From the sequence record PZ445443.1: a DNA stretch of 64,000 nt; one strand, 5' to 3'. The notes beneath the pieces were generated by a model. It was not told where the DNA came from and made no database searches. It saw nothing but the letters and a program-made list of their open reading frames with translations. Origin of the DNA: a phage. The position numbers and the translations under genes are program-made. Shown piece by piece: positions 3,793-30,115 of the stretch. The stretch's first letter is position 1; every line of letters begins with the position of its first letter.

Positions 3793-6570
3793 ATGAGCAT
3801 GTGGTCTTTCGATTTTGAGTCATCCGGTTTGCTGGAAGACCCAGATCTTTATTATCACTGCGGCCTGTTTAAAGAGCTGAATAAGAACCGTTTTATGCTG
3901 TTCCTTCCTCTAAATGACCGCACACACTACTCCGAGGAGGATATAGAGAAGGCTAAGAACTTTATTCTGGCAAAGAAAACTCTTTATAAAGATTTTGAAG
4001 TTCGCATAGCAGATTTTTCGGAGTTAGAAGGTTGGCTTACAGGCAATTCCGACTGGTCACCAACAGCTTTGAACTGCCATAACTGCTACAGTTATGACTT
4101 TATGCTGATGGAAAGATTATCCGGTATTCATTTTGATATGTTCCGTGATCCTAAATGCATGGGGACTATCAACGACCACCAGGTCAACCTGTTTGATACG
4201 TTGGCGATGAGCCGAATCTTATGGCCTGATCGCCCTTTACCAAAAGGTTGTCCGGACTCTGTATTCAACCCGGTTACTAAGAAAATGCAGCCTGTCGGTC
4301 CTCACGGCCTTATGGCATGGGGCTACGCCCTTGGTAACCAGAAAGTTCAAATTGATGACTGGCGCGATCTTCCGTTGTGGAAGTATGTGGATCGTGTATT
4401 CGAGGACGTTATCATCCAGGAGCTGCTCTGGAAAGAGCTGGTAGCGGAATCAAAAGGTGTATTCTACGGCAAATCTGACATGCAGAACTTTATGTACGAT
4501 CCTGCCAAAGAGAAGCCGAAAGGGTTCAAGAAGATCACCTGGAAGAACGCATTACGCCGAGGCATGCTGCAGCACTTCCTGATGGAGCTGCAGGCCCGTC
4601 AGGGTGTGTATTTTGACATAGATGGGGCTATTGCTTTACGTGACCGTTGCGATGCGTGGATGAAAGAAATCGCTGATCGTGTTGAACCGCAACTACCTTT
4701 AAAAGAGCTGTCAATGTCTCAGCGGCCCAAGTTCCCTGAAAAGCCGTTTAACCAAGATGGGACAATCTCCAATAATGGTTGGAAATGGTTAAAAGATAAG
4801 CTTGGCTATCCTGTAGATATGAGCGCTTTAGAGTTCAAAGCCCCGCCTAAGCGAGCATTTACCTCTACAGGAGATGTCAGTAAGATGGGGATAAAATGGT
4901 GTGAAGAGATGGGCTGCAAAGACCCCGATAAGATGGCTGATTTCTTGAGAGGCTATATTAAGGGCACCTCCACACCACAACCTTTACCTAAAGAGCTAAT
5001 GGATCAGGCAATAAGTGATCTACAGCAGAAGCGAATGCCGGACTGCAAGATACCTATGAAAATCAGCAACCAGGACGACATTAAGCGATACCTGATCAGT
5101 GCTGGTTGGCTTCCGACAATGTGGAGAACTAAGGATGTAACTAAAGACAGCAAGAAGAAAGCTCTACCTGATGCAGATGTTGATGCACGAGTATATGCAT
5201 ATATGGACGAGCTTTTAGAGTCAGAGTATTGTGACCTGATTATCAACTTCTGGAACAAAACTGATGCTAAGTTCCAGACAACCGTGCACAAGTTCCGAAG
5301 CTTTCCTAACTCCGAAAGGATTAAAAAGGAAGTATTCGGGAAAATACGTAGAAAAGCTAGGGCACTTATTACTTCTCCGCAACTGAAAGATACGTTTGGA
5401 CACCTATGCCCTAATCTTGAAAAATTGAACGGAGAGATGGCTAAAGATATCGTCTTGTGGTTATCATTGCGAAACCGCAGATCGGTACTTGATCCAATCA
5501 AGGAGGATAAGGTTGATACTGGTCTTCTTAATCACCCACGTTTGAAGATTGACCATAAGCTTCCTGCTAAAAGTTCTGGGTTAACAAACACTTCCCGACA
5601 GAAACACAGTATTTGTGCAAACATGCCTAAACCATCTCCTAAAGTGGTTATGGGTAAAGAGATGCGTAGTCTGTGGGGTGTTCCTCCAGGATACTTTGAG
5701 ATCGGTATTGACGGGTCCAACTTAGAGCAGCTTATCGGGGCTTGGGGTGCCTTTGAGTTCGACAACGGCCTGTATTACGATGTTGTAAGTAACGGGGACG
5801 CACACCAAAACAATGCTGAGGCATATACAAAAGTAGCAGGTAGAGAGGTGTCTCGTAACGACGGTAAACCTATCACGTATGGGGTTATGTATGGGGCACA
5901 AAAAGATAAAGTTGCAGATATGCTGGACATCTCTCCAGAGTTGGGACAAAGGGTAATCGATGCACTCTGGGATGCCAACCCTGGTCTTAAGGGGCGTAAA
6001 GAAGATCTGGAGAAATTCTGGGAAGCAACGGGTAAGAAGTTTATCTACTCTTTTGATGGTCATGCTATCTGGACCCGATCTAAACACTCTTTACTTAATG
6101 CATACCAACAAAATGGCGGCGCATCGTTGTGTGACTTAGTTGGGATACTCATGCACCATCAAATGGTGAAGCGTGGGTGGTACGATGAAGGTGTTCGTCG
6201 TATTATCTATTACCATGACGAATATCAGCTTCAAGTCCCTGACACACCGAAGTATAAGACTGTGTACACCTTCGACACAATCGAAGAACTGGAAGCATTT
6301 AAGGCAGAGCAGGAGGCCAAACTTCATGTGTTCGACGGTCATAAGTACAAAAAGGCACGCAAGGATGAGGACGGAAACGAAGTGGTTGACAGAGACGGAA
6401 ACACGGTGTACGATCCTATCCTGAACGATGACGGAAAGCTTGAACTTATCTGGAGCCCTGTGGGTGAAATGGTGGTGCATTGCTTCTGGCAAGCTTCTAA
6501 AATGATGGGCGTCCCGTTCCAGATCACAGGTGAATACCTGTGTGGTCGTAATTGGGGTGATTGTCACTAA
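3793..6570 (+). CDS. DNA polymerase, family A (T7-like) with 3'-5' exonuclease domain
   Basis: Exo I FDFESSGL; motif B-like KPITYGVMYGAQKDKVADML; motif C YHDEYQLQV; AAGGAG RBS; 925 aa. Confidence 0.85.
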   Translation: MSMWSFDFESSGLLEDPDLYYHCGLFKELNKNRFMLFLPLNDRTHYSEEDIEKAKNFILAKKTLYKDFEVRIADFSELEGWLTGNSDWSPTALNCHNCYSYDFMLMERLSGIHFDMFRDPKCMGTINDHQVNLFDTLAMSRILWPDRPLPKGCPDSVFNPVTKKMQPVGPHGLMAWGYALGNQKVQIDDWRDLPLWKYVDRVFEDVIIQELLWKELVAESKGVFYGKSDMQNFMYDPAKEKPKGFKKITWKNALRRGMLQHFLMELQARQGVYFDIDGAIALRDRCDAWMKEIADRVEPQLPLKELSMSQRPKFPEKPFNQDGTISNNGWKWLKDKLGYPVDMSALEFKAPPKRAFTSTGDVSKMGIKWCEEMGCKDPDKMADFLRGYIKGTSTPQPLPKELMDQAISDLQQKRMPDCKIPMKISNQDDIKRYLISAGWLPTMWRTKDVTKDSKKKALPDADVDARVYAYMDELLESEYCDLIINFWNKTDAKFQTTVHKFRSFPNSERIKKEVFGKIRRKARALITSPQLKDTFGHLCPNLEKLNGEMAKDIVLWLSLRNRRSVLDPIKEDKVDTGLLNHPRLKIDHKLPAKSSGLTNTSRQKHSICANMPKPSPKVVMGKEMRSLWGVPPGYFEIGIDGSNLEQLIGAWGAFEFDNGLYYDVVSNGDAHQNNAEAYTKVAGREVSRNDGKPITYGVMYGAQKDKVADMLDISPELGQRVIDALWDANPGLKGRKEDLEKFWEATGKKFIYSFDGHAIWTRSKHSLLNAYQQNGGASLCDLVGILMHHQMVKRGWYDEGVRRIIYYHDEYQLQVPDTPKYKTVYTFDTIEELEAFKAEQEAKLHVFDGHKYKKARKDEDGNEVVDRDGNTVYDPILNDDGKLELIWSPVGEMVVHCFWQASKMMGVPFQITGEYLCGRNWGDCH

Positions 6571-25238: not shown

Positions 25239-25511
25239 ATGTCAAGCTGGATTAATCAAGAAGTCGAATCACGTTTTAATGCTATTTGGGATCTCATCGA
25301 AAAAGAGGACGGAACATCAAGCCCCTACCTCAACAATTTGGAATTCCATTTTGTGGAAGCGATGAACGCAGAACATGATCACGAAGGTGGCGCGGATGAG
25401 TTCGCTAAAGGTTATGGCTTTAACAATGCCAACGAAATGATCGAGGCGGTAGTACTCCAGGCTGAGGAAGATTATCAATTAAAAACGCTTGAATTCTGCC
25501 GCCATAAGTAA
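25239..25511 (+). CDS. hypothetical protein
   Basis: ATG after AGGAGAGAGG RBS. Confidence 0.55.
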   Translation: MSSWINQEVESRFNAIWDLIEKEDGTSSPYLNNLEFHFVEAMNAEHDHEGGADEFAKGYGFNNANEMIEAVVLQAEEDYQLKTLEFCRHK

Positions 25512-25571
25512 TAAGATAATGACACGGGCCAAAAGGCCCACTAATCAGAACCGCACAAAGAGGTAAACATC

Positions 25572-25835
25572 ATGAAACGTCTTGACCAGCTCAAACTAGT
25601 TCAATATATGGCTTATCGTGTTCTTGAAGTCCAGAAAGGTAGCAAAAAAGAGGTTTGCGAGAAAGCTTATAAGATCTTTACCCGCAAAAAAGATGACTGG
25701 ATGCTACGCCAGACCAAAAAAGCCGATATACTGGGGTACCTGGAAGAAGAGATCCGCCTTGAAGAACAAGAAGAGATCCGCCGTAGTGAGGCAGATTATC
25801 AGGCAGCTTGGGAAAACTGGATGAGCAACAAATAA
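25572..25835 (+). CDS. hypothetical protein
   Basis: ATG after AAGAGGTAAA RBS; 5' hairpin GGGCCAAAAGGCCC. Confidence 0.55.
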   Translation: MKRLDQLKLVQYMAYRVLEVQKGSKKEVCEKAYKIFTRKKDDWMLRQTKKADILGYLEEEIRLEEQEEIRRSEADYQAAWENWMSNK

Positions 25836-25903
25836 TACAACAAGTTACATGGTCAGGGGGGCAATAAAGCCCCTTGATCGCATGAAAATTATGCTATCTC
25901 TGG

Positions 25904-25932
25904 TTGACAGGGATCGGCAGTTTTGCTATATT
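25904..25932 (+). promoter_or_regulatory. sigma70-like promoter
   Basis: TTGACA, 17 bp spacer, TATATT. Confidence 0.55.
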
Positions 25933-25981
25933 CTTTTTTAAAGGGAAGTTGTAAGAAAATTAACTAAGAGGTAAAAACACC

Positions 25982-26401
25982 ATGAATATTAAATCTGATA
26001 ATCCGGCATATAGCTTTGATAACGCTTTTTGTCACGGTCCGGCGGCGAAAGGTTTTGAAATTGATGGTAAACTAGTTATTGTCAATGTTGACGGGGAAGA
26101 GGTTGCAGTGTATCCGGTGGCAGACGTTAAAAGCCGTTTACAATGCCGCATCGATGTTACCGCATATCAGCTTGATCCGGTCCGCGTAGTCTCCCTGGTC
26201 CTGGAGGAAGAAATCAAAGCAATGCACCACAGCAATAAGTTTATCGGTGACGCGCAAGATAATATGAAGGTATGCCGCTATAAAGTTAATGAAGTGCTTA
26301 AAGAATATGGATTTAAGGATCTGATGATCAAACGTGATGAAAAATTTCGTTATCGTAACGACCTGGCAAATCGAATCTATGAAATATACGAATCATTATA
26401 A
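25982..26401 (+). CDS. hypothetical protein
   Basis: ATG after TAAGAGGTAAA RBS; last gene of forward block. Confidence 0.55.
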   Translation: MNIKSDNPAYSFDNAFCHGPAAKGFEIDGKLVIVNVDGEEVAVYPVADVKSRLQCRIDVTAYQLDPVRVVSLVLEEEIKAMHHSNKFIGDAQDNMKVCRYKVNEVLKEYGFKDLMIKRDEKFRYRNDLANRIYEIYESL

Positions 26402-26420
26402 TTTTTTAACTGAATTATCA

Positions 26421-26444
26421 AGGGGCTTAGGCCCCTTTCTTTTT
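26421..26444 (+). terminator. rho-independent terminator
   Basis: AGGGGC-TTAG-GCCCCT hairpin followed by TTCTTTTT. Confidence 0.7.
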
Positions 26445-27052
26445 GTCTGCTCTTCCCCTACCATAAACGGCCATACATGGCAAGTGGAATAATTGACGAG
26501 CCATCAATCCCACACACTGTACAAATATACATGTAAAATAACTATTGCATAACTTTTCATTGTGTGGTAGCAGGGCCATTTTTACACGTTTTTCCTTCCA
26601 AAATTGCACGTAATGCAGCATTTGCACAAAATTTAACCTGATGCATATCTTCAATAGCTTGTCAACAACTAAAAATCTTTATAAGTCATACACTTACATA
26701 ACTACAAAAGCGTTTTCTACGTGAAAAATCGAGTATAACTATAGCCGCCAGACCTCAGAATTTACGTACGCTCGACATTCTATAGCCTGCTAAGCATTTA
26801 TTCCAACCATAGAATAACGGAATAGTCAATACCTGCATAAAATAATTATTCGTGTAAACTGCATAACATAAATCGGCCCAGGTGTCAACATTTTTCGTAA
26901 ACAGTCCGAAATTATCACTATGAGTTATCATAAACAGGGAAATCTTTAGTCGTCTAATGTTTACTGTACATTACTATACTGACTGGAATCATTAGATGAC
27001 TAAGAGAAAGATAAGAAATAATTAACAATACAATTATTTTATCTGTAACAAT

Positions 27053-27322
27053 AAGGCAACTATGCAAACGAATGGCATGGCGCGACGGAGTCGCGACATA
27101 ATATAAAAGCAGTAACCATCACCCCCGTGATAGTTTGTCTGCAAACTATTAATCAGATCATAGTTGCCTTGTATTTAGTTAATCATGACATAACAAGCAA
27201 GGCAACTATAGATCTGCTAATAGTTGCCCTGCTTTTATATTATGTCATAGAAACACCCGAAGGGGTGACCAAAGGTCACCTGGCATGGCCAGTGAAAGAT
27301 TATTAACTTGCTAATAGTTATC
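27053..27322. repeat. array of 11 bp motif AAGGCAACTAT in both orientations (about 5 copies)
   Basis: AAGGCAACTAT at 27053 and 27199; reverse complement ATAGTTGCCTT at 27160; close variants at 27220 and 27314; flanked by duplicated GCAAACGAATGGCATGGC (27064, 27325). Confidence 0.6.
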
Positions 27323-27354
27323 ATGCAAACGAATGGCATGGCTGATTATCGGTG

Positions 27355-27440
27355 TGTAAACAGTCAATCATGTAAATGGTTAGCATGTGAACAATCAGGA
27401 ATGTAAACAATCCAGTGTGTAAACTAATAGGTGTGTAAAA
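27355..27440. repeat. six phased TGTAAAC-like repeats at about 16 bp spacing
   Basis: TGTAAAC 27355, TGTAAAT 27371, TGTGAAC 27386, TGTAAAC 27402, TGTAAAC 27418, TGTAAAA 27434. Confidence 0.6.
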
Positions 27441-28029
27441 GTGTCATGTTGTGTCAGTTAGGTCACATTATGTCATATTGTGTCAGACAAGTTTTTCTCC
27501 TCTTTGTCAAGTGCTGCATGAAAAATTTACAATCTGGTATGGTAGCATTTTTGCGGCCCTGTTTACATTCAGGGGTGTATGTATAATCCTTGTTGTGTGG
27601 GCGTTTAGACGTCTGGACGGTCAGAAGTCTGCAGGTTAATATCTAATCTATTGGCTGCTAACTATATCCCACACAAATAGTAAGAAATATGATTGTTATA
27701 TGCGTAAACTGTAACTCATGTTATCAATCCCTGTATGTATCGCCAGTGGTGCGCATAATGGGTATTATGTTAAATTGCCCGTAATGATAAAGGTTCTCAC
27801 AATGATAGGTATTCTCATTCACCCCCACAAAATAGATTGCAAATGTTGTGCCACTGTGTGAACGGCCTAGCCTATTAATTTGCCTCACTGCCTCGATATT
27901 TGAGAATTGTTATAAGAATGAGAAGTATTCCCATTTCGTCCGCCTGGCAGCACTCCTGTAGGTCAGGTCAAAATCGTGGTAGAACTGGACCTGTTCAGAT
28001 ATTTCTGGCTGACTCTTCAGGTCTGTGTG

Positions 28030-28555
28030 GGAAAAGCCAACCTCTCCGGCGGGGCAGGGGATAGGTCAATTAAAAAATTTACGTGGTGTATGAAGCGCTC
28101 TTCAGGTAAGGCAGGTATTATGGGATGAAACCCTCTTCAGGCAATGATATTTGTGGGTGTGATATTTGCTGGAAAGCCAGATATGACGGGACTCCCGGCG
28201 GGGCAGGGGTGGTACAGACAGGGAAAATATGAAGGATGTGGTTGGGTAGATTGATCAGACAGGTAGAGTATGGAATATGTTACAAGTATGTTAAATATGG
28301 AGGTTGAATATCTGTAGGATTTGTGTGTAAAATCAAAGACTTAAGTGGTGTTGTGGTATTTTCTATAAATAATTCAAGTTTAATAGGTGATATTTGTCTC
28401 TATCCGCTTTGTGTGGTAAACAGATTCAGATGAGATTGGTTTACAAGTGTATACATAATATACAAATTAAAGATACAAGAAACCCCCCTCCCCCTTCGGC
28501 TACCATTCACCTTTTCCTCTGACTGGTACTTAAACACTTATTCAGACTCTTCAGG
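28030..28555. repeat. dispersed direct repeats CTCTTCAGG (x4) and CCGGCGGGGCAGGGG (x2)
   Basis: CTCTTCAGG at 28030, 28115, 28150, 28547; CCGGCGGGGCAGGGG at 28063 and 28212, each preceded by AAAGCCA. Confidence 0.55.
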
Positions 28556-28905
28556 TTATCACCTATATATCATATGGCAGTGACTGGTGTCCTCCGGCCC
28601 CTCTTTCGTCACCCGTCCGCTTCGCCATGCTAATGCCATAGCCAATGGTTCGGTTGTTCACCCTGTTCACTCAGGTGTATCTCCATACCCCTTCAAACCG
28701 AAGAGAACAGAAAACCCGAATTACTCGGTAAAAGAAAAGAGAAGAACTTAATTTTATCAGGATAGGCAAGAATGTCAAGGCATGACTGCTCACTAAACAA
28801 GCAAACAGTCATGTGTGGGAGGTAAGTGATTGTGGTGGTAGGAAATTTAGTTGAAAGATGTGTTATAGGTGCTTCCAGCACTTTAGCCGGGCAGCTAATT
28901 GTGTG

Positions 28906-29121
28906 TCAGTCCAGCGGTTCATCCTCTACTTCACTGAAATCAATGTTCATGGTCTCCTCCCAACCATCGATCTCAGCACAAGAGTGGAGTTCTTTAGGGT
29001 TTACTCCCAAAGCCTCAGCAACAGAGTCTATATTTAACACCTCTGGCAGGTATGATTCATCAAATTCAAGGTAAATCAGGCCACGAGTGTTGTCAGCCCC
29101 ACCAAATATTTCTATCTTCAT
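28906..29121 (-). CDS. hypothetical small acidic protein (MKIEI-type N-terminus)
   Basis: ATG after AGGAGA RBS; last gene of reverse block. Confidence 0.5.
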   Translation of the reverse strand: MKIEIFGGADNTRGLIYLEFDESYLPEVLNIDSVAEALGVNPKELHSCAEIDGWEETMNIDFSEVEDEPLD

Positions 29122-29242
29122 GAAATCTCCTCTGGAAATGAGAGTGTGAACAGGGTTTTATGCGTTCCAATACGCTGGAATTATACACGTTTGCCTCTTC
29201 AGGCCATGCTTTAGCATGAGGAACCTGTGTGGGCTCGGTGCT

Positions 29243-29656
29243 TCATAGTCTACCACCTCTGAACTCTTCGTGCTCAGGCATAATAGAGAACCAGATATCT
29301 ACGATGTCTCCCCACGTTAGGTCATCAGCCTCAGGATCTACCTGGAGCGAAGATGGAGAATCTTCAGAATCGAAGTTTTCCTCTTTCACTGGCTCAGCCA
29401 AGGGACATATAGCCACTCCTTTGGATGTCTCTTCAGATGCATGTGTGTTTATCATGTTCCACCCGTGAGTATTCCGGCAACAGCCACTATGGACGTAATG
29501 ATCATCAGAATCACCACCAAAACCTCTGACAATGTTTTCATTGTGTATCCCATATTCTCCAAACGATGTGTGGATACTATCACTGGAGCGACAATGTGTC
29601 AACAGAAACGCCGCGAGGGTTTGGTTAAAATCCGAGCGTATGGTGATTTGGGTCAA
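29243..29656 (-). CDS. hypothetical protein (start uncertain)
   Basis: Co-oriented ORF; acidic C-terminal half; alternative ATG at 29455 would give 70 aa. Confidence 0.35.
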   Translation of the reverse strand: MTQITIRSDFNQTLAAFLLTHCRSSDSIHTSFGEYGIHNENIVRGFGGDSDDHYVHSGCCRNTHGWNMINTHASEETSKGVAICPLAEPVKEENFDSEDSPSSLQVDPEADDLTWGDIVDIWFSIMPEHEEFRGGRL

Positions 29657-29815
29657 AACGGACGTGCGTTCTCGCTACGCTCGAAATATAGAGTTGTTTG
29701 CAGGAAGCTCTTAAACGCTCTGTAATGAGATTAACTACCCAAGGTATGCAATCGTGCACCAGATAAAGAAAAGGACGCCACAGAGCGTCCTAGGTGTCTT
29801 AAATTTGATATTTTG

Positions 29816-30115
29816 CTATACCCACGAGGGCTTATCAAGATTGGAGTAGCTGAAAGGTGTCAAAAGGTGACTGTCAAAATCTCTCAAACTATCCAAATCT
29901 TTTTCCTCGTCCTGACACCATCTGTGCCTACATTTATTGTTGTAGTGCATGGAATGCATAGCGTTCTGCAACTTAACAGGCACAAGTGATTCAGGAGTAG
30001 ATAGTATTGTAGGGTATGCCAGAACCACCTCAAACAGTGGAAACACATCGAAACTAAAGTCTACCTCTGCAGAGGTTGATGGCATATAGGAGTATTTAGC
30101 CGCCTTTGTAGACAT
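29816..30115 (-). CDS. hypothetical protein
   Basis: ATG 30115 after GAGGTGG (track start GTG 30127). Confidence 0.45.
   Translation of the reverse strand: MSTKAAKYSYMPSTSAEVDFSFDVFPLFEVVLAYPTILSTPESLVPVKLQNAMHSMHYNNKCRHRWCQDEEKDLDSLRDFDSHLLTPFSYSNLDKPSWV

What the first reader, a model, noticed from the sequence alone, without database searches (positions are those of the whole stretch)
27053..27342. Iteron-like array of the 11-mer AAGGCAACTAT in alternating orientation
Five exact or near-exact copies lie within about 270 bp in both orientations, bracketed by two copies of GCAAACGAATGGCATGGC. Alternating-orientation short repeats like this are typical of sites bound by a multimerising DNA-binding protein, such as an origin or partition/centromere-like site.
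Basis: seen in the sequence. Interest (0 to 1): 0.6.

Follow-up and report, generated by a model that had tools for sequence, protein, structure and literature searches.

The report
Conserved palindrome beside phage genome end
The repeated 11-mers are the paired arms of a 152-base hairpin-forming palindrome that rV5-like phages and two sister genera keep about 240-400 bp inside one end of their linear genome, so it is more likely a DNA signal for genome-end processing, packaging or replication start than a plasmid-style iteron or partition site.

Summary
The window is an rV5-like coliphage (Vequintavirus). The motif is real and unique to this locus. There are three exact copies, one copy with one mismatch, and two exact copies of a 20-mer. 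The claimed fifth copy has three mismatches and is not conserved.

The four real copies are not an iteron array. Together with a degenerate copy at 27139-49, B, C and D form the inner stem of one branched palindrome, 27095-27246, closed by an 18-bp perfect stem. Copy A (27053) lies outside it.

The palindrome lies in a 2.5-kb ORF-free gap where two gene blocks converge. It is 240 bp from the edge of the 459-bp direct terminal repeat (27486-27944), mapped from EdH4, Gotham, KPP-1 and DP.

A homologous element sits at the same place and in the same orientation in Mydovirus and Seunavirus. There, 8 stem pairs show compensatory Watson-Crick changes and none shows a G·U intermediate. A covariance model built from those genera picks out the window element.

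The element is the most conserved non-coding stretch left of the DTR. One phage, FV3, has lost it by deletion between the 20-mers.

Best reading (about 0.4): a hairpin-forming, probably protein-bound cis element of T7-type genome-end maturation or packaging. A replication origin (0.25) and an RNA role (0.13) remain open. A partition site is not supported.

The parts
27053..27063 (+). Copy A of the 11-mer AAGGCAACTAT. It lies outside the palindrome and is fused to the first 20-mer.
   Evidence: Conserved in 18 Vequintavirus sequences, with one T>C change in EduardKellenberger. It is the only copy retained in FV3.
27062..27081 (+). Direct repeat 1 of the 20-mer ATGCAAACGAATGGCATGGC
   Evidence: FV3 has a single copy, with everything between the two copies deleted.
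27080..27097 (+). Leader GGCGCGAC-GGA-GTCGCGAC, a small GC hairpin directly before the closing stem. It is homologous to the GGCGCGAGCG.AGCGAGCGAC leader of Mydo/Seunavirus.
27095..27112 (+). P1 5' arm GACATAATATAAAAGCAG, part of the perfect 18-bp closing stem
   Evidence: I3, 100% complementary; invariant in 18 relatives; aligned to P1 of covariance model R1
27114..27135 (+). P2 side hairpin AACCATCAC-CCCC-GTGATAGTT
27139..27171 (+). P3 5' strand: degenerate copy A' (CTGCAAACTAT, 27139-49), spacer TAATCAGATC, and copy B (ATAGTTGCCTT, 27160-70, the minus-sense 11-mer)
   Evidence: (D3, I8)
27198..27230 (+). P3 3' strand: copy C (27199-209), spacer AGATCTGCTA, and copy D (27220-30, one mismatch). 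C plus D alone also form the hairpin annotated as a 'terminator' in Murica.
   Evidence: (I6, I8)
27229..27246 (+). P1 3' arm CTGCTTTTATATTATGTC
27247..27322 (.). Variable module between the palindrome and the second 20-mer. It is replaced by unrelated sequences in different relatives. It contains the false fifth copy at 27314-24.
   Evidence: column identity 74-80%
27323..27342 (+). Direct repeat 2 of the 20-mer
27350..27440 (+). Array of six degenerate GTAAAC/GTGAAC units spaced 15-16 nt apart, with 1-9 exact core hexamers marked in relatives (array length visibly variable)
   Evidence: (D1, D12); column identity about 50%
27441..27485 (+). TGTCA units with a 10-bp period that abut the terminal-repeat edge
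   Evidence: period 10, 4.6 copies
27486..27944 (.). Direct terminal repeat (459 bp, present once in this window). It defines the physical genome ends.
   Evidence: EdH4 base 1 corresponds to 27944 and its last base to 27486. Gotham annotates repeat_region 1-459. A 458-bp terminal redundancy is reported in PMC6563267.

Best explanation
Structure (high confidence, about 0.9). The 11-mers are the two strands of the inner stem (P3) of a 152-nt branched palindrome, 27095-27246. It has an 18-bp perfect closing stem P1, a side hairpin P2 and a long stem P3. It belongs to an element family conserved in Vequintavirus, Mydovirus and Seunavirus. The element always lies 234-404 bp from the same edge of the short direct terminal repeat, in the same orientation.

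Function (inferred, about 0.4). It is a cis-acting DNA element of genome-end maturation or packaging in a T7-type (short exact DTR) life cycle. Replication produces concatemers with one DTR between genomes. The unique DNA on this side of the DTR carries, in order from the cut site, 10-bp-phased TGTCA units, GTAAAC units at 15-16-bp spacing, and the palindrome. These together would mark the packaging-initiation side. The sequence-invariant P3 motif, with its extra unpaired copy upstream, is proposed to be bound by a phage protein, with a small terminase or an accessory factor as the first candidate. The strictly Watson-Crick stems are proposed to fold when the DNA is single-stranded or strained, during nicking and strand displacement, helping to process or duplicate the DTR.

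The palindrome would be an enhancer rather than the core signal, because FV3 lacks it.

Shown: anatomy, position, conservation, covariation and uniqueness. Inferred: protein binding, hairpin formation in vivo, and the link to packaging.
For: Position. The DTR maps to 27486-27944 (PMC6563267). The element ends 240 bp from its edge. In 10 Mydo/Seunavirus genomes (KPP-1, DP and eight others) the homologous element ends 234-404 bp from the homologous DTR-edge motif. The predicted edge coincides exactly with DP's annotated 514-bp repeat_region and with KPP-1's DTR, which was mapped by coverage and PhageTerm.

Homology. There are collinear similarity islands (leader plus P1 z = 3.9, DTR edge z = 3.9, DTR interior z = 4.8). 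Covariance model R1, built only from Mydo/Seunavirus, has its best hit in the 2.5-kb gap at 27079-27250 (+), 18.4 bits, E about 1.6e-4.

Structure. Fold z-scores are -7.6 to -8.8 for the window and -10.7 for KPP-1. Across 15 distinct Mydo/Seunavirus sequences, 99.6% of cells are paired, 8 pairs (31 cells) changed on both sides, 0 changed on one side only, and slid controls give 0. Insertions fall in apical loops.

Constraint. 27082-27231 is 98-99.8% identical across 12 relatives, against 88-96% for the neighbouring ORF.

Sequence-specific recognition. P3 and the junctions are invariant within Mydo/Seunavirus. An extra copy of the P3 motif lies upstream of P1 in both groups although the motif itself differs.

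Asymmetry. Repeat arrays lie only on this side of the DTR, with a 10-bp period next to the cut site.

Uniqueness. No copy exists elsewhere in the genome.

T7-type packaging was inferred for KPP-1 (PMC9862379). A hairpin-ended DNA containing the terminal repeat is reported in T7 infection (as summarised in PMC4281155).
Against: FV3 lacks the whole palindrome, and is the only clear case among the 119 matching records (of which the best 25 were listed). The element therefore cannot be an essential packaging signal unless that record is wrong. T7 itself has no comparable large palindrome next to its right terminal repeat, only inverted repeats with 10-12-nt arms, so the analogy is functional and not anatomical. 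No terminase small subunit or other binding protein has been identified. One paper infers headful packaging for a Vequintavirus from PhageTerm (PMC13211470), which conflicts with the fixed-end records. Nothing here shows that the hairpin forms in vivo.
Confidence: 0.4

Rival explanations
1. Replication origin. An initiator, or the phage primase-helicase, recognises the repeated P3 motif in both orientations plus the upstream copy. The flanking 80% AT tract (27000-27049) melts, and the palindrome helps unwinding or primer loading.
For: The motif is repeated in both orientations and has an extra upstream copy that changes in concert between genera. An AT-rich 50-mer lies directly upstream. Conservation is extreme. 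The locus is single and unique. Dispensability in FV3 is compatible, because phages can use secondary origins (my own knowledge of T7 and T4). The rV5 authors looked for an origin and could not separate skew from transcription (PMC3606486).
Against: There are no direct, phased iterons. There are no DnaA or IHF boxes. No initiator-like domain is found in the neighbouring ORFs. The cumulative GC-skew maximum here is explained by convergent transcription. The fixed position and orientation relative to the DTR edge in three genera is not required of an origin.
Confidence: 0.25
2. RNA-level element: a bidirectional terminator or 3'-end-protecting hairpin at the meeting point of the two convergent transcription units, or a structured non-coding RNA.
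For: The element lies between convergent gene blocks. The C/D hairpin plus T-run is annotated as a terminator in Murica and Alma. Terminator-like hairpins on the minus strand are found at 27135-27114 and 27267-27254. A palindrome folds in transcripts of either strand. The few mismatches seen are C.A on the plus strand, which is G.U on the minus strand.
Against: A strong terminator (26420-37) already follows the last plus-strand gene, 650 nt upstream. The last minus-strand gene ends 1660 nt away. No sigma-70-like promoter points into the element from nearby on either strand. The Mydo/Seunavirus homologues have no T-run after any stem. Covariation uses Watson-Crick pairs only, with no G.U intermediates in 734 cells, which is unusual for an RNA. 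An 18-21-bp perfect duplex would be an RNase III substrate. There is no Rfam match.
Confidence: 0.13
3. A purely double-stranded operator pair: two 29-bp sites GGCAACTAT-N10-ATAGTTGCC, 60 bp apart, bound by a dimeric regulator, with the hairpin potential being incidental.
For: (D3: two copies 60 bp apart). Half-sites are invariant while the N10 spacers vary without compensation (G>T in Murica, AlexBoehm, BP9, TP5, A142 and NHEP1).
Against: This does not explain the perfect P1 stem or the covarying P2 and P4 hairpins, which carry no shared motif. There is no regulated promoter at the site. There are no other sites in the genome. The left half-site of the first 'operator' is degenerate, with an extra base.
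Confidence: 0.07
4. A selfish or neutral palindromic insertion flanked by a 20-bp duplication, with no function for the phage.
For: It is flanked by exact 20-mers and cleanly absent in FV3. The 3' side of P1 is a hot spot for hairpin-rich insertions with short duplications, as in PVP-SE1 and AV124.
Against: It is single-copy. It is present in 118 of 119 records although palindromes between direct repeats delete easily. It is the most conserved non-coding stretch left of the DTR. Its position, orientation and covariation are conserved across three genera.
Confidence: 0.05

Closest known systems
T7/T3 concatemer-junction region: short repeat arrays SRL/SRR beside the 160-bp terminal repeat, pac signals, and a hairpin-ended processing intermediate
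   Same: Both have a short exact DTR and cis sequences in unique DNA flanking it, including arrays of short degenerate repeats. Both need to duplicate the repeat during maturation. A DNA hairpin is implicated in T7 (PMC4281155; the details of SRL/SRR and pacB are from my own knowledge).
   Different: T7 has only small inverted repeats near its right repeat. Here there is a 152-270-nt branched palindrome with a perfect 17-21-bp closing stem. The host phage is a 137-kb myovirus using host-type promoters. No experimental link to packaging exists.
Phage T5 'repeat region 3' / injection-stop (iss) region at the edge of the left terminal repeat
   Same: Both are large untranslated regions at a terminal-repeat boundary with a conserved order of inverted repeats or palindromes followed by a run of direct repeats (nine DRD in T5). 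Both are better conserved than the neighbouring ORFs, and neither function is settled (bioRxiv 10.1101/866236).
   Different: The T5 region carries paired DnaA boxes, and none are conserved here. T5 repeats are 10 kb and encode pre-early genes. There is no evidence of two-step injection in rV5-like phages.
Lambda cosB (R3, R2, R1 sites for gpNu1 plus an IHF site) next to cosN
   Same: Short repeats in both orientations lie just inside the first-packaged end and are bound by the small terminase (my own knowledge). This resembles an asymmetric signal on one side of the cut.
   Different: Lambda has cohesive ends, 16-bp sites within about 170 bp of the cut, an IHF site and no hairpin. Here the motif lies 260-430 bp from the DTR edge and forms a covarying stem.
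Origins with iterons in both orientations (satellite phage P4 ori/crr; lambda ori with palindromic iterons)
   Same: A repeated short motif occurs in both orientations, next to an AT-rich tract, at a single locus (my own knowledge for P4 and lambda).
   Different: No initiator gene is linked. There are only 4-5 motif copies, and these are arranged as a stem. Closing and side stems without the motif also covary.
Parvovirus (AAV) inverted terminal repeat: a T-shaped branched hairpin with Rep-binding elements
   Same: Both are branched palindromes made of an outer stem plus internal small palindromes, with a sequence-specific protein motif embedded in a stem. The AAV repeat has roles in replication and packaging (for the general literature).
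   Different: The AAV repeat is at the very terminus of a single-stranded genome and self-primes. This element is internal, about 700 bp from the physical end of a double-stranded genome.
Rho-independent terminator (the GenBank annotation in Murica and vB_Eco_Alma)
   Same: The C/D hairpin followed by TTTTATATTAT looks like one.
   Different: It has a 10-nt loop and a mismatch. It is embedded in a larger palindrome. There is no T-run in the homologous elements of the other genera, and no gene ends nearby.

Membership tests
Iteron-type replication origin | Three or more directly repeated 17-22-bp iterons in one orientation with regular (helical) spacing | tested here: not met
   Orientations are + - + - with start-to-start spacings of 107, 39 and 21 bp. 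The copies pair as a stem.
Iteron-type replication origin | Adjacent AT-rich unwinding region | tested here: met
   27000-27049 is 80% A+T. An AT-rich tract also lies upstream in Mydo/Seunavirus. This is weak evidence in a 61% A+T non-coding region.
Iteron-type replication origin | Initiator gene at or next to the repeats; host DnaA/IHF boxes | tested here: not met
   Nine flanking ORFs have no Pfam domain and match only PHROGs of unknown function. No conserved DnaA or IHF box is found.
Iteron-type replication origin | The fragment supports initiation of replication | not testable with these tools
   This needs marker-frequency analysis or a plasmid replication assay during infection.
Partition/centromere site (parS, parC) | Adjacent ParA/ParB or ParM/ParR genes on a stably maintained low-copy replicon | tested here: not met
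   No such domains are found, and none is annotated in the 4-8.5-kb terminus loci of relatives listed here. The genome is a lytic myovirus with fixed ends.
Rho-independent terminator | Stable short-loop hairpin directly followed by a U-run, downstream of a transcription unit, conserved in relatives | tested here: inconclusive
   The C/D hairpin plus T-run is annotated in Murica but is not called on the plus strand by the scan, because its loop is 10 nt. The nearest gene end is 650 nt away and has its own terminator. Homologues in other genera have no T-run.
Vequintavirinae DTR-proximal branched palindrome (family delimited here) | GGCGCGA leader followed by a perfect 17-21-bp closing stem with core GCGACA.AATA | tested here: met
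   Covariance model R1, built without any Vequintavirus sequence, hits 27079-27250 (+) at 18.4 bits, E about 1.6e-4 in the 2.5-kb gap. The hit is missed with default filters over 64 kb. The Smith-Waterman z-score is 3.9.
Vequintavirinae DTR-proximal branched palindrome (family delimited here) | Same side, same orientation, and 234-404 bp from the conserved DTR-edge motif | tested here: met
   The distance is 240 bp in the window and 234-404 bp in 10 Mydo/Seunavirus genomes.
Vequintavirinae DTR-proximal branched palindrome (family delimited here) | Interior hairpins P2, P3 and P4 with the Mydo/Seunavirus sequences | tested here: not met
   The interior is not alignable. The window has P2 and a long P3 made of the 11-mers, and no P4. 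It is therefore a divergent subtype.
T7-type concatemer-junction / packaging signal | Short exact direct terminal repeat, with cis signals in the flanking unique DNA | tested here: met
   A DTR of 458-459 bp or 514 bp. Repeat arrays and the palindrome lie on one side only.
T7-type concatemer-junction / packaging signal | Required in cis for maturation or packaging; bound by terminase | not testable with these tools
   FV3 lacks the palindrome, so at most it is an accessory signal.
Known RNA families (Rfam 15) | Match to a curated covariance model | tested here: not met
   No hit at E<=1 in 25500-30000. Only chance-level hits are found in four Mydo/Seunavirus loci.
Invertible DNA segment (inverton) | Both orientations of the segment between the inverted repeats occur among genomes; a recombinase is nearby | tested here: not met
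   All 18 Vequintavirus and all 15 Mydo/Seunavirus elements share one orientation. No recombinase domain is found nearby.

The most novel reading that the evidence does not exclude
The palindrome is a previously undescribed class of packaging or maturation signal for myoviruses with short terminal repeats. In this reading, a branched DNA hairpin (three- or four-way junction) folds in displaced or unwound single strands next to the concatemer junction. A phage protein recognises it through the invariant stem motif. It then directs, or primes, duplication of the 459-bp terminal repeat.
Probability: 0.25. Interest if true: 0.7.

Novelty: new variant of a known kind. Interest (0 to 1): 0.5.

Why it matters
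How phages with short exact terminal repeats recognise the concatemer junction and duplicate the repeat is still unresolved, even for T7, and nothing is known for the large rV5-like myoviruses that are widely isolated for phage therapy and biocontrol. The rV5 genome paper simply labels this 2.5-kb region 'non-coding' (PMC3606486).

This work places the physical ends inside that region. It also defines a covarying structural element, two repeat arrays and a terminal promoter around them. Together these give concrete, mutable targets for packaging, replication-origin and engineering studies: where to linearise synthetic genomes, and what must be kept in cis.

The strictly Watson-Crick covariation is also a clean example of selection acting on DNA-level secondary structure.

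Tried and rejected
- Rfam scans of the window gap and of four related loci found nothing.
- Covariance model R1 with default filters over the whole window missed the element. It was found only with filters off on the 2.5-kb gap.
- tblastn of nine flanking window ORFs against the KPP-1 terminus locus found no homology. Orientation therefore had to be set from DNA motifs.
- Pfam and PHROGs on the flanking ORFs gave no function.
- Chi, DnaA-box and IHF scans found nothing conserved.
- GC skew has a maximum here, but this is explained by convergent transcription.
- The inverton idea was rejected, because there is no orientation polymorphism.
- The multi-copy mobile element idea was rejected, because there is one place per genome.
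- The T7 right end was checked for an equivalent palindrome, and only 10-12-nt arms were found.
- Covariation within Vequintavirus could not be tested, because the stems are almost invariant.
- A literature search for Vequintavirus transcriptomics found nothing usable.
- The DdmABC palindrome paper is context only.
- IMG/VR and metagenome scans added few new sequences.

Full report
IDENTITY AND CONTEXT

The window is an rV5-like coliphage (Vequintavirus). The 2.5 kb around the finding is 92-97% identical to naam, nimi, rV5_ev158, Murica, EdH4 and about 160 other records.

The finding lies in an ORF-free gap, 26402-28905. On the left, a plus-strand block of small genes ends at 26401 and is followed by a strong terminator at 26420-37. 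On the right, a minus-strand block ends at 28906. The rV5 genome paper draws this region as a grey 'non-coding' box. Its authors could not find an origin, because every skew change coincides with a change in transcription direction (PMC3606486; skew profile).

THE OBSERVATION

AAGGCAACTAT is present exactly at 27053(+), 27160(-) and 27199(+), and with one mismatch at 27220(-). The window has 7 hits at <=1 mismatch against 1.35 expected, and four of them lie within 178 bp.

The 'fifth copy' at 27314-24 has three mismatches and is replaced by unrelated sequence in relatives. It is not a copy.

The bracketing repeat is an exact 20-mer at 27062-81 and 27323-42.

The other 74 kb of the genome, read from the 95%-identical phage naam, contains no exact 11-mer, no 20-mer and no copy of the outer arm.

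ANATOMY

The copies are parts of one structure. An 18-nt perfect inverted repeat (27095-112 / 27229-46) encloses the following:
- a side hairpin, 27114-35;
- a degenerate copy, CTGCAAACTAT, at 27139-49;
- copy B, then copy C, then copy D.

B pairs perfectly with C, and the degenerate copy pairs with D.

As RNA or as DNA, and on either strand, the 311 nt fold 7.6-8.8 standard deviations better than shuffles.

An equivalent description is two 29-bp sites GGCAACTAT-N10-ATAGTTGCC, 60 bp apart (D3).

Copy A (27053) is outside the structure.

THE PHYSICAL GENOME END IS NEXT DOOR

Korf et al. report 458-bp terminal redundancies for the vequintaviruses EdH4 and HdK5 (PMC6563267). Gotham annotates repeat_region 1-459.

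BLAST places EdH4 base 1 at window 27944 and its last base at 27486. The direct terminal repeat (DTR) is therefore 27486-27944, and it is present once in this window.

Reading from the DTR edge outward into unique DNA, the order is:
- TGTCA units with a 10-bp period, 27441-85;
- six degenerate GTAAAC units 15-16 nt apart, 27350-27440, varying in number in relatives (1-9 exact core hexamers marked);
- the second 20-mer;
- a 76-nt module that differs between relatives;
- the palindrome;
- the first 20-mer fused to copy A.

The other side of the DTR has no such arrays.

CONSERVATION WITHIN THE GENUS

In an alignment of 13 genomes, 27082-27231 is 98-99.8% identical. The neighbouring ORF is 88-96% identical, and the repeat arrays are 47-80%.

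P1 is invariant in 18 distinct sequences.

A 30-33-nt insertion in V5, C7, phita32 and LL12 lies in the apical loop of P3.

FV3 alone has a single 20-mer with everything between the two copies missing; it is the only one with a contiguous junction among the records listed from 119 matches. This is the classical deletion of a palindrome between direct repeats. The element is therefore dispensable for viability, yet it is almost always kept.

CONSERVATION BEYOND THE GENUS

KPP-1 (Mydovirus) has a 514-bp DTR by coverage and PhageTerm, and its packaging was classed as T7-type (PMC9862379).

Its terminus region, once reverse-complemented, is collinear with the window. The similarity islands are leader plus P1 (z = 3.9), DTR edge (z = 3.9) and DTR interior (z = 4.8).

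KPP-1 carries a 206-nt branched palindrome with a 21-bp perfect closing stem (fold z = -10.7).

The same element is present in Mydo, KNP2, AV124, EspYZU15, PVP-SE1, 4MG, GAP31, EC152, DP and several metagenomic contigs.

It always ends 234-404 bp from the homologous DTR-edge motif. The predicted edge falls exactly on DP's annotated repeat_region.

Across 15 distinct sequences:
- 99.6% of cells are paired;
- 8 pairs (31 cells) have compensatory changes on both sides;
- none has a one-sided (G.U) change;
- structures slid by 1-3 columns give zero.

P3 (GTTATCGTGGC/GCCACGATAAC) and the junctions are invariant. P1, P2 and P4 covary.

A covariance model built from these 15 sequences has its best hit in the window's gap at 27079-27250 (+), 18.4 bits, E about 1.6e-4. 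The leader and P1 align, and the interior is skipped. With default filters over the whole window it finds nothing. The window element is therefore a divergent subtype: same leader, same closing stem, same place, different interior.

WHAT THE 11-MERS ARE

They are the strands of stem P3.

Protein recognition is nevertheless likely. P3 is sequence-invariant within each group while other stems drift by compensation. In both groups one more copy of the P3 motif lies upstream of P1, where it has no pairing partner (AAGGCAACTAT in the window, CGTTCGCGTAATCGTGG in Mydo/Seunavirus). The motif and its extra copy have changed together between the groups.

DNA OR RNA

Several points favour DNA:
- Watson-Crick-only covariation;
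- no sigma-70-like promoter pointing into the element from nearby;
- a terminator already present 650 nt upstream;
- no T-run in the Mydo/Seunavirus homologues;
- no Rfam match.

A little evidence points the other way. The few mismatches are C.A on the plus strand, hence G.U on the minus strand (window P2; P4 of KNP2 and 4MG; one P2 pair of KNP2 and AV124). Murica and Alma annotate the C/D hairpin as a terminator.

MECHANISM

The best-supported reading is a cis-acting DNA element of genome-end maturation or packaging. The grounds are:
- its fixed position and orientation next to one DTR edge in three genera;
- the one-sided repeat arrays, phased at 10 bp beside the cut;
- a structure selected at the DNA level;
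- a motif suited to protein binding.

By analogy, T7 needs to duplicate its repeat and shows a hairpin-ended intermediate (PMC4281155). T5 has an ordered set of palindromes and direct repeats at its terminal-repeat boundary (bioRxiv 10.1101/866236).

The analogy is not anatomical, because the T7 right end has only small inverted repeats. FV3 shows the palindrome is at most an enhancer.

I put this reading at 0.4. A replication origin is the main rival (0.25): the repeated motif, the AT-rich tract and the dispensability all fit, but there are no direct iterons, no initiator and no DnaA or IHF boxes. RNA roles get 0.13, a purely duplex operator 0.07, and a neutral insertion 0.05.

A partition site is not supported: there are no par genes, and this is a lytic phage with fixed ends.

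NOVELTY

I found no description of this element. The rV5 paper calls the region non-coding, the BASEL paper does not discuss it, and other papers report only DTR lengths.

Repeat and palindrome regions beside terminal repeats are a known kind of thing (T7, T5). A covarying branched palindrome conserved across Vequintavirinae genera is a new variant of that kind.

Noticed in passing
27486-27944 and 27504-27533: The window contains the 459-bp direct terminal repeat, so the physical genome ends lie inside it. A sigma-70-like promoter, TTGTCA-18-TACAAT, starts 18 nt inside the DTR edge and fires into the repeat. On the virion end that terminates at 27486 it would sit at the extreme terminus pointing inward. 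The block 27482-27531 is 99.5% conserved. The same arrangement, with the edge 17-18 nt before TTGTCAAG ... TTTACAA, is found in 10 Mydo/Seunavirus genomes.
   Followed up: partly
27350-27485: There are two arrays of short direct repeats between the palindrome and the DTR edge. One has GTAAAC/GTGAAC units 15-16 nt apart, varying in number in relatives (1-9 exact core hexamers marked). The other has TGTCA units with a 10-bp period. This is the most variable stretch of the gap (47-70% column identity).
   Followed up: partly
28482-28831: A non-coding block on the other side of the DTR is 97.5-99.8% conserved. It contains a near-consensus minus-strand promoter (TTGACA-16-TGtTAAAAT, 28778-28751) and a small terminator-like hairpin (28728-28716). 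It may be a small RNA or a control region.
   Followed up: no
about 28014-28061 and 28100-28209: There are repeated units CTCTTCAGG and GGAAA(A)GCCA...CCGGCGGGGCAGGGG, two copies about 150 bp apart, in the gap to the right of the DTR.
   Followed up: no
L009 (FV3) 2201-2390; window 27082-27322: FV3 has a precise deletion between the two 20-mers. V5, C7, phita32 and LL12 carry a 30-33-nt insertion in the apical loop of P3. PVP-SE1 and AV124 carry a hairpin-rich insertion of about 85 nt flanked by a 13-nt duplication of the P1 3' arm. Mydo and one metagenomic contig have insertions in the P2 loop. The element is a hot spot for small structural rearrangements.
   Followed up: partly
25982-26401: The 139-aa ORF (PHROG 12277, unknown function; noted in Murica as containing a 'Rel homology domain') is absent from FV3, EdH4, Gotham, A142 and one IMG/VR contig. 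It is an accessory gene next to the terminus region.
   Followed up: no
26946-27003: Another hairpin (22-nt arms, 82% complementary, 14-nt loop) lies about 50 nt upstream of copy A and overlaps two weak minus-strand promoter-like sites.
   Followed up: no
GenBank MG0656xx records (e.g. L011, L014): Eighteen 'UNVERIFIED: Campylobacter phage' records are Vequintavirus genomes 86-97% identical to this window. They are probably mislabelled or come from contaminating coliphages.
   Followed up: no
L044 (naam) 4388-4472: An annotated repeat_region lies in the 660-nt gap after a 'putative transcriptional regulator' (naam_7), near the divergent promoter region. This is another candidate control or origin region, outside this window.
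   Followed up: no
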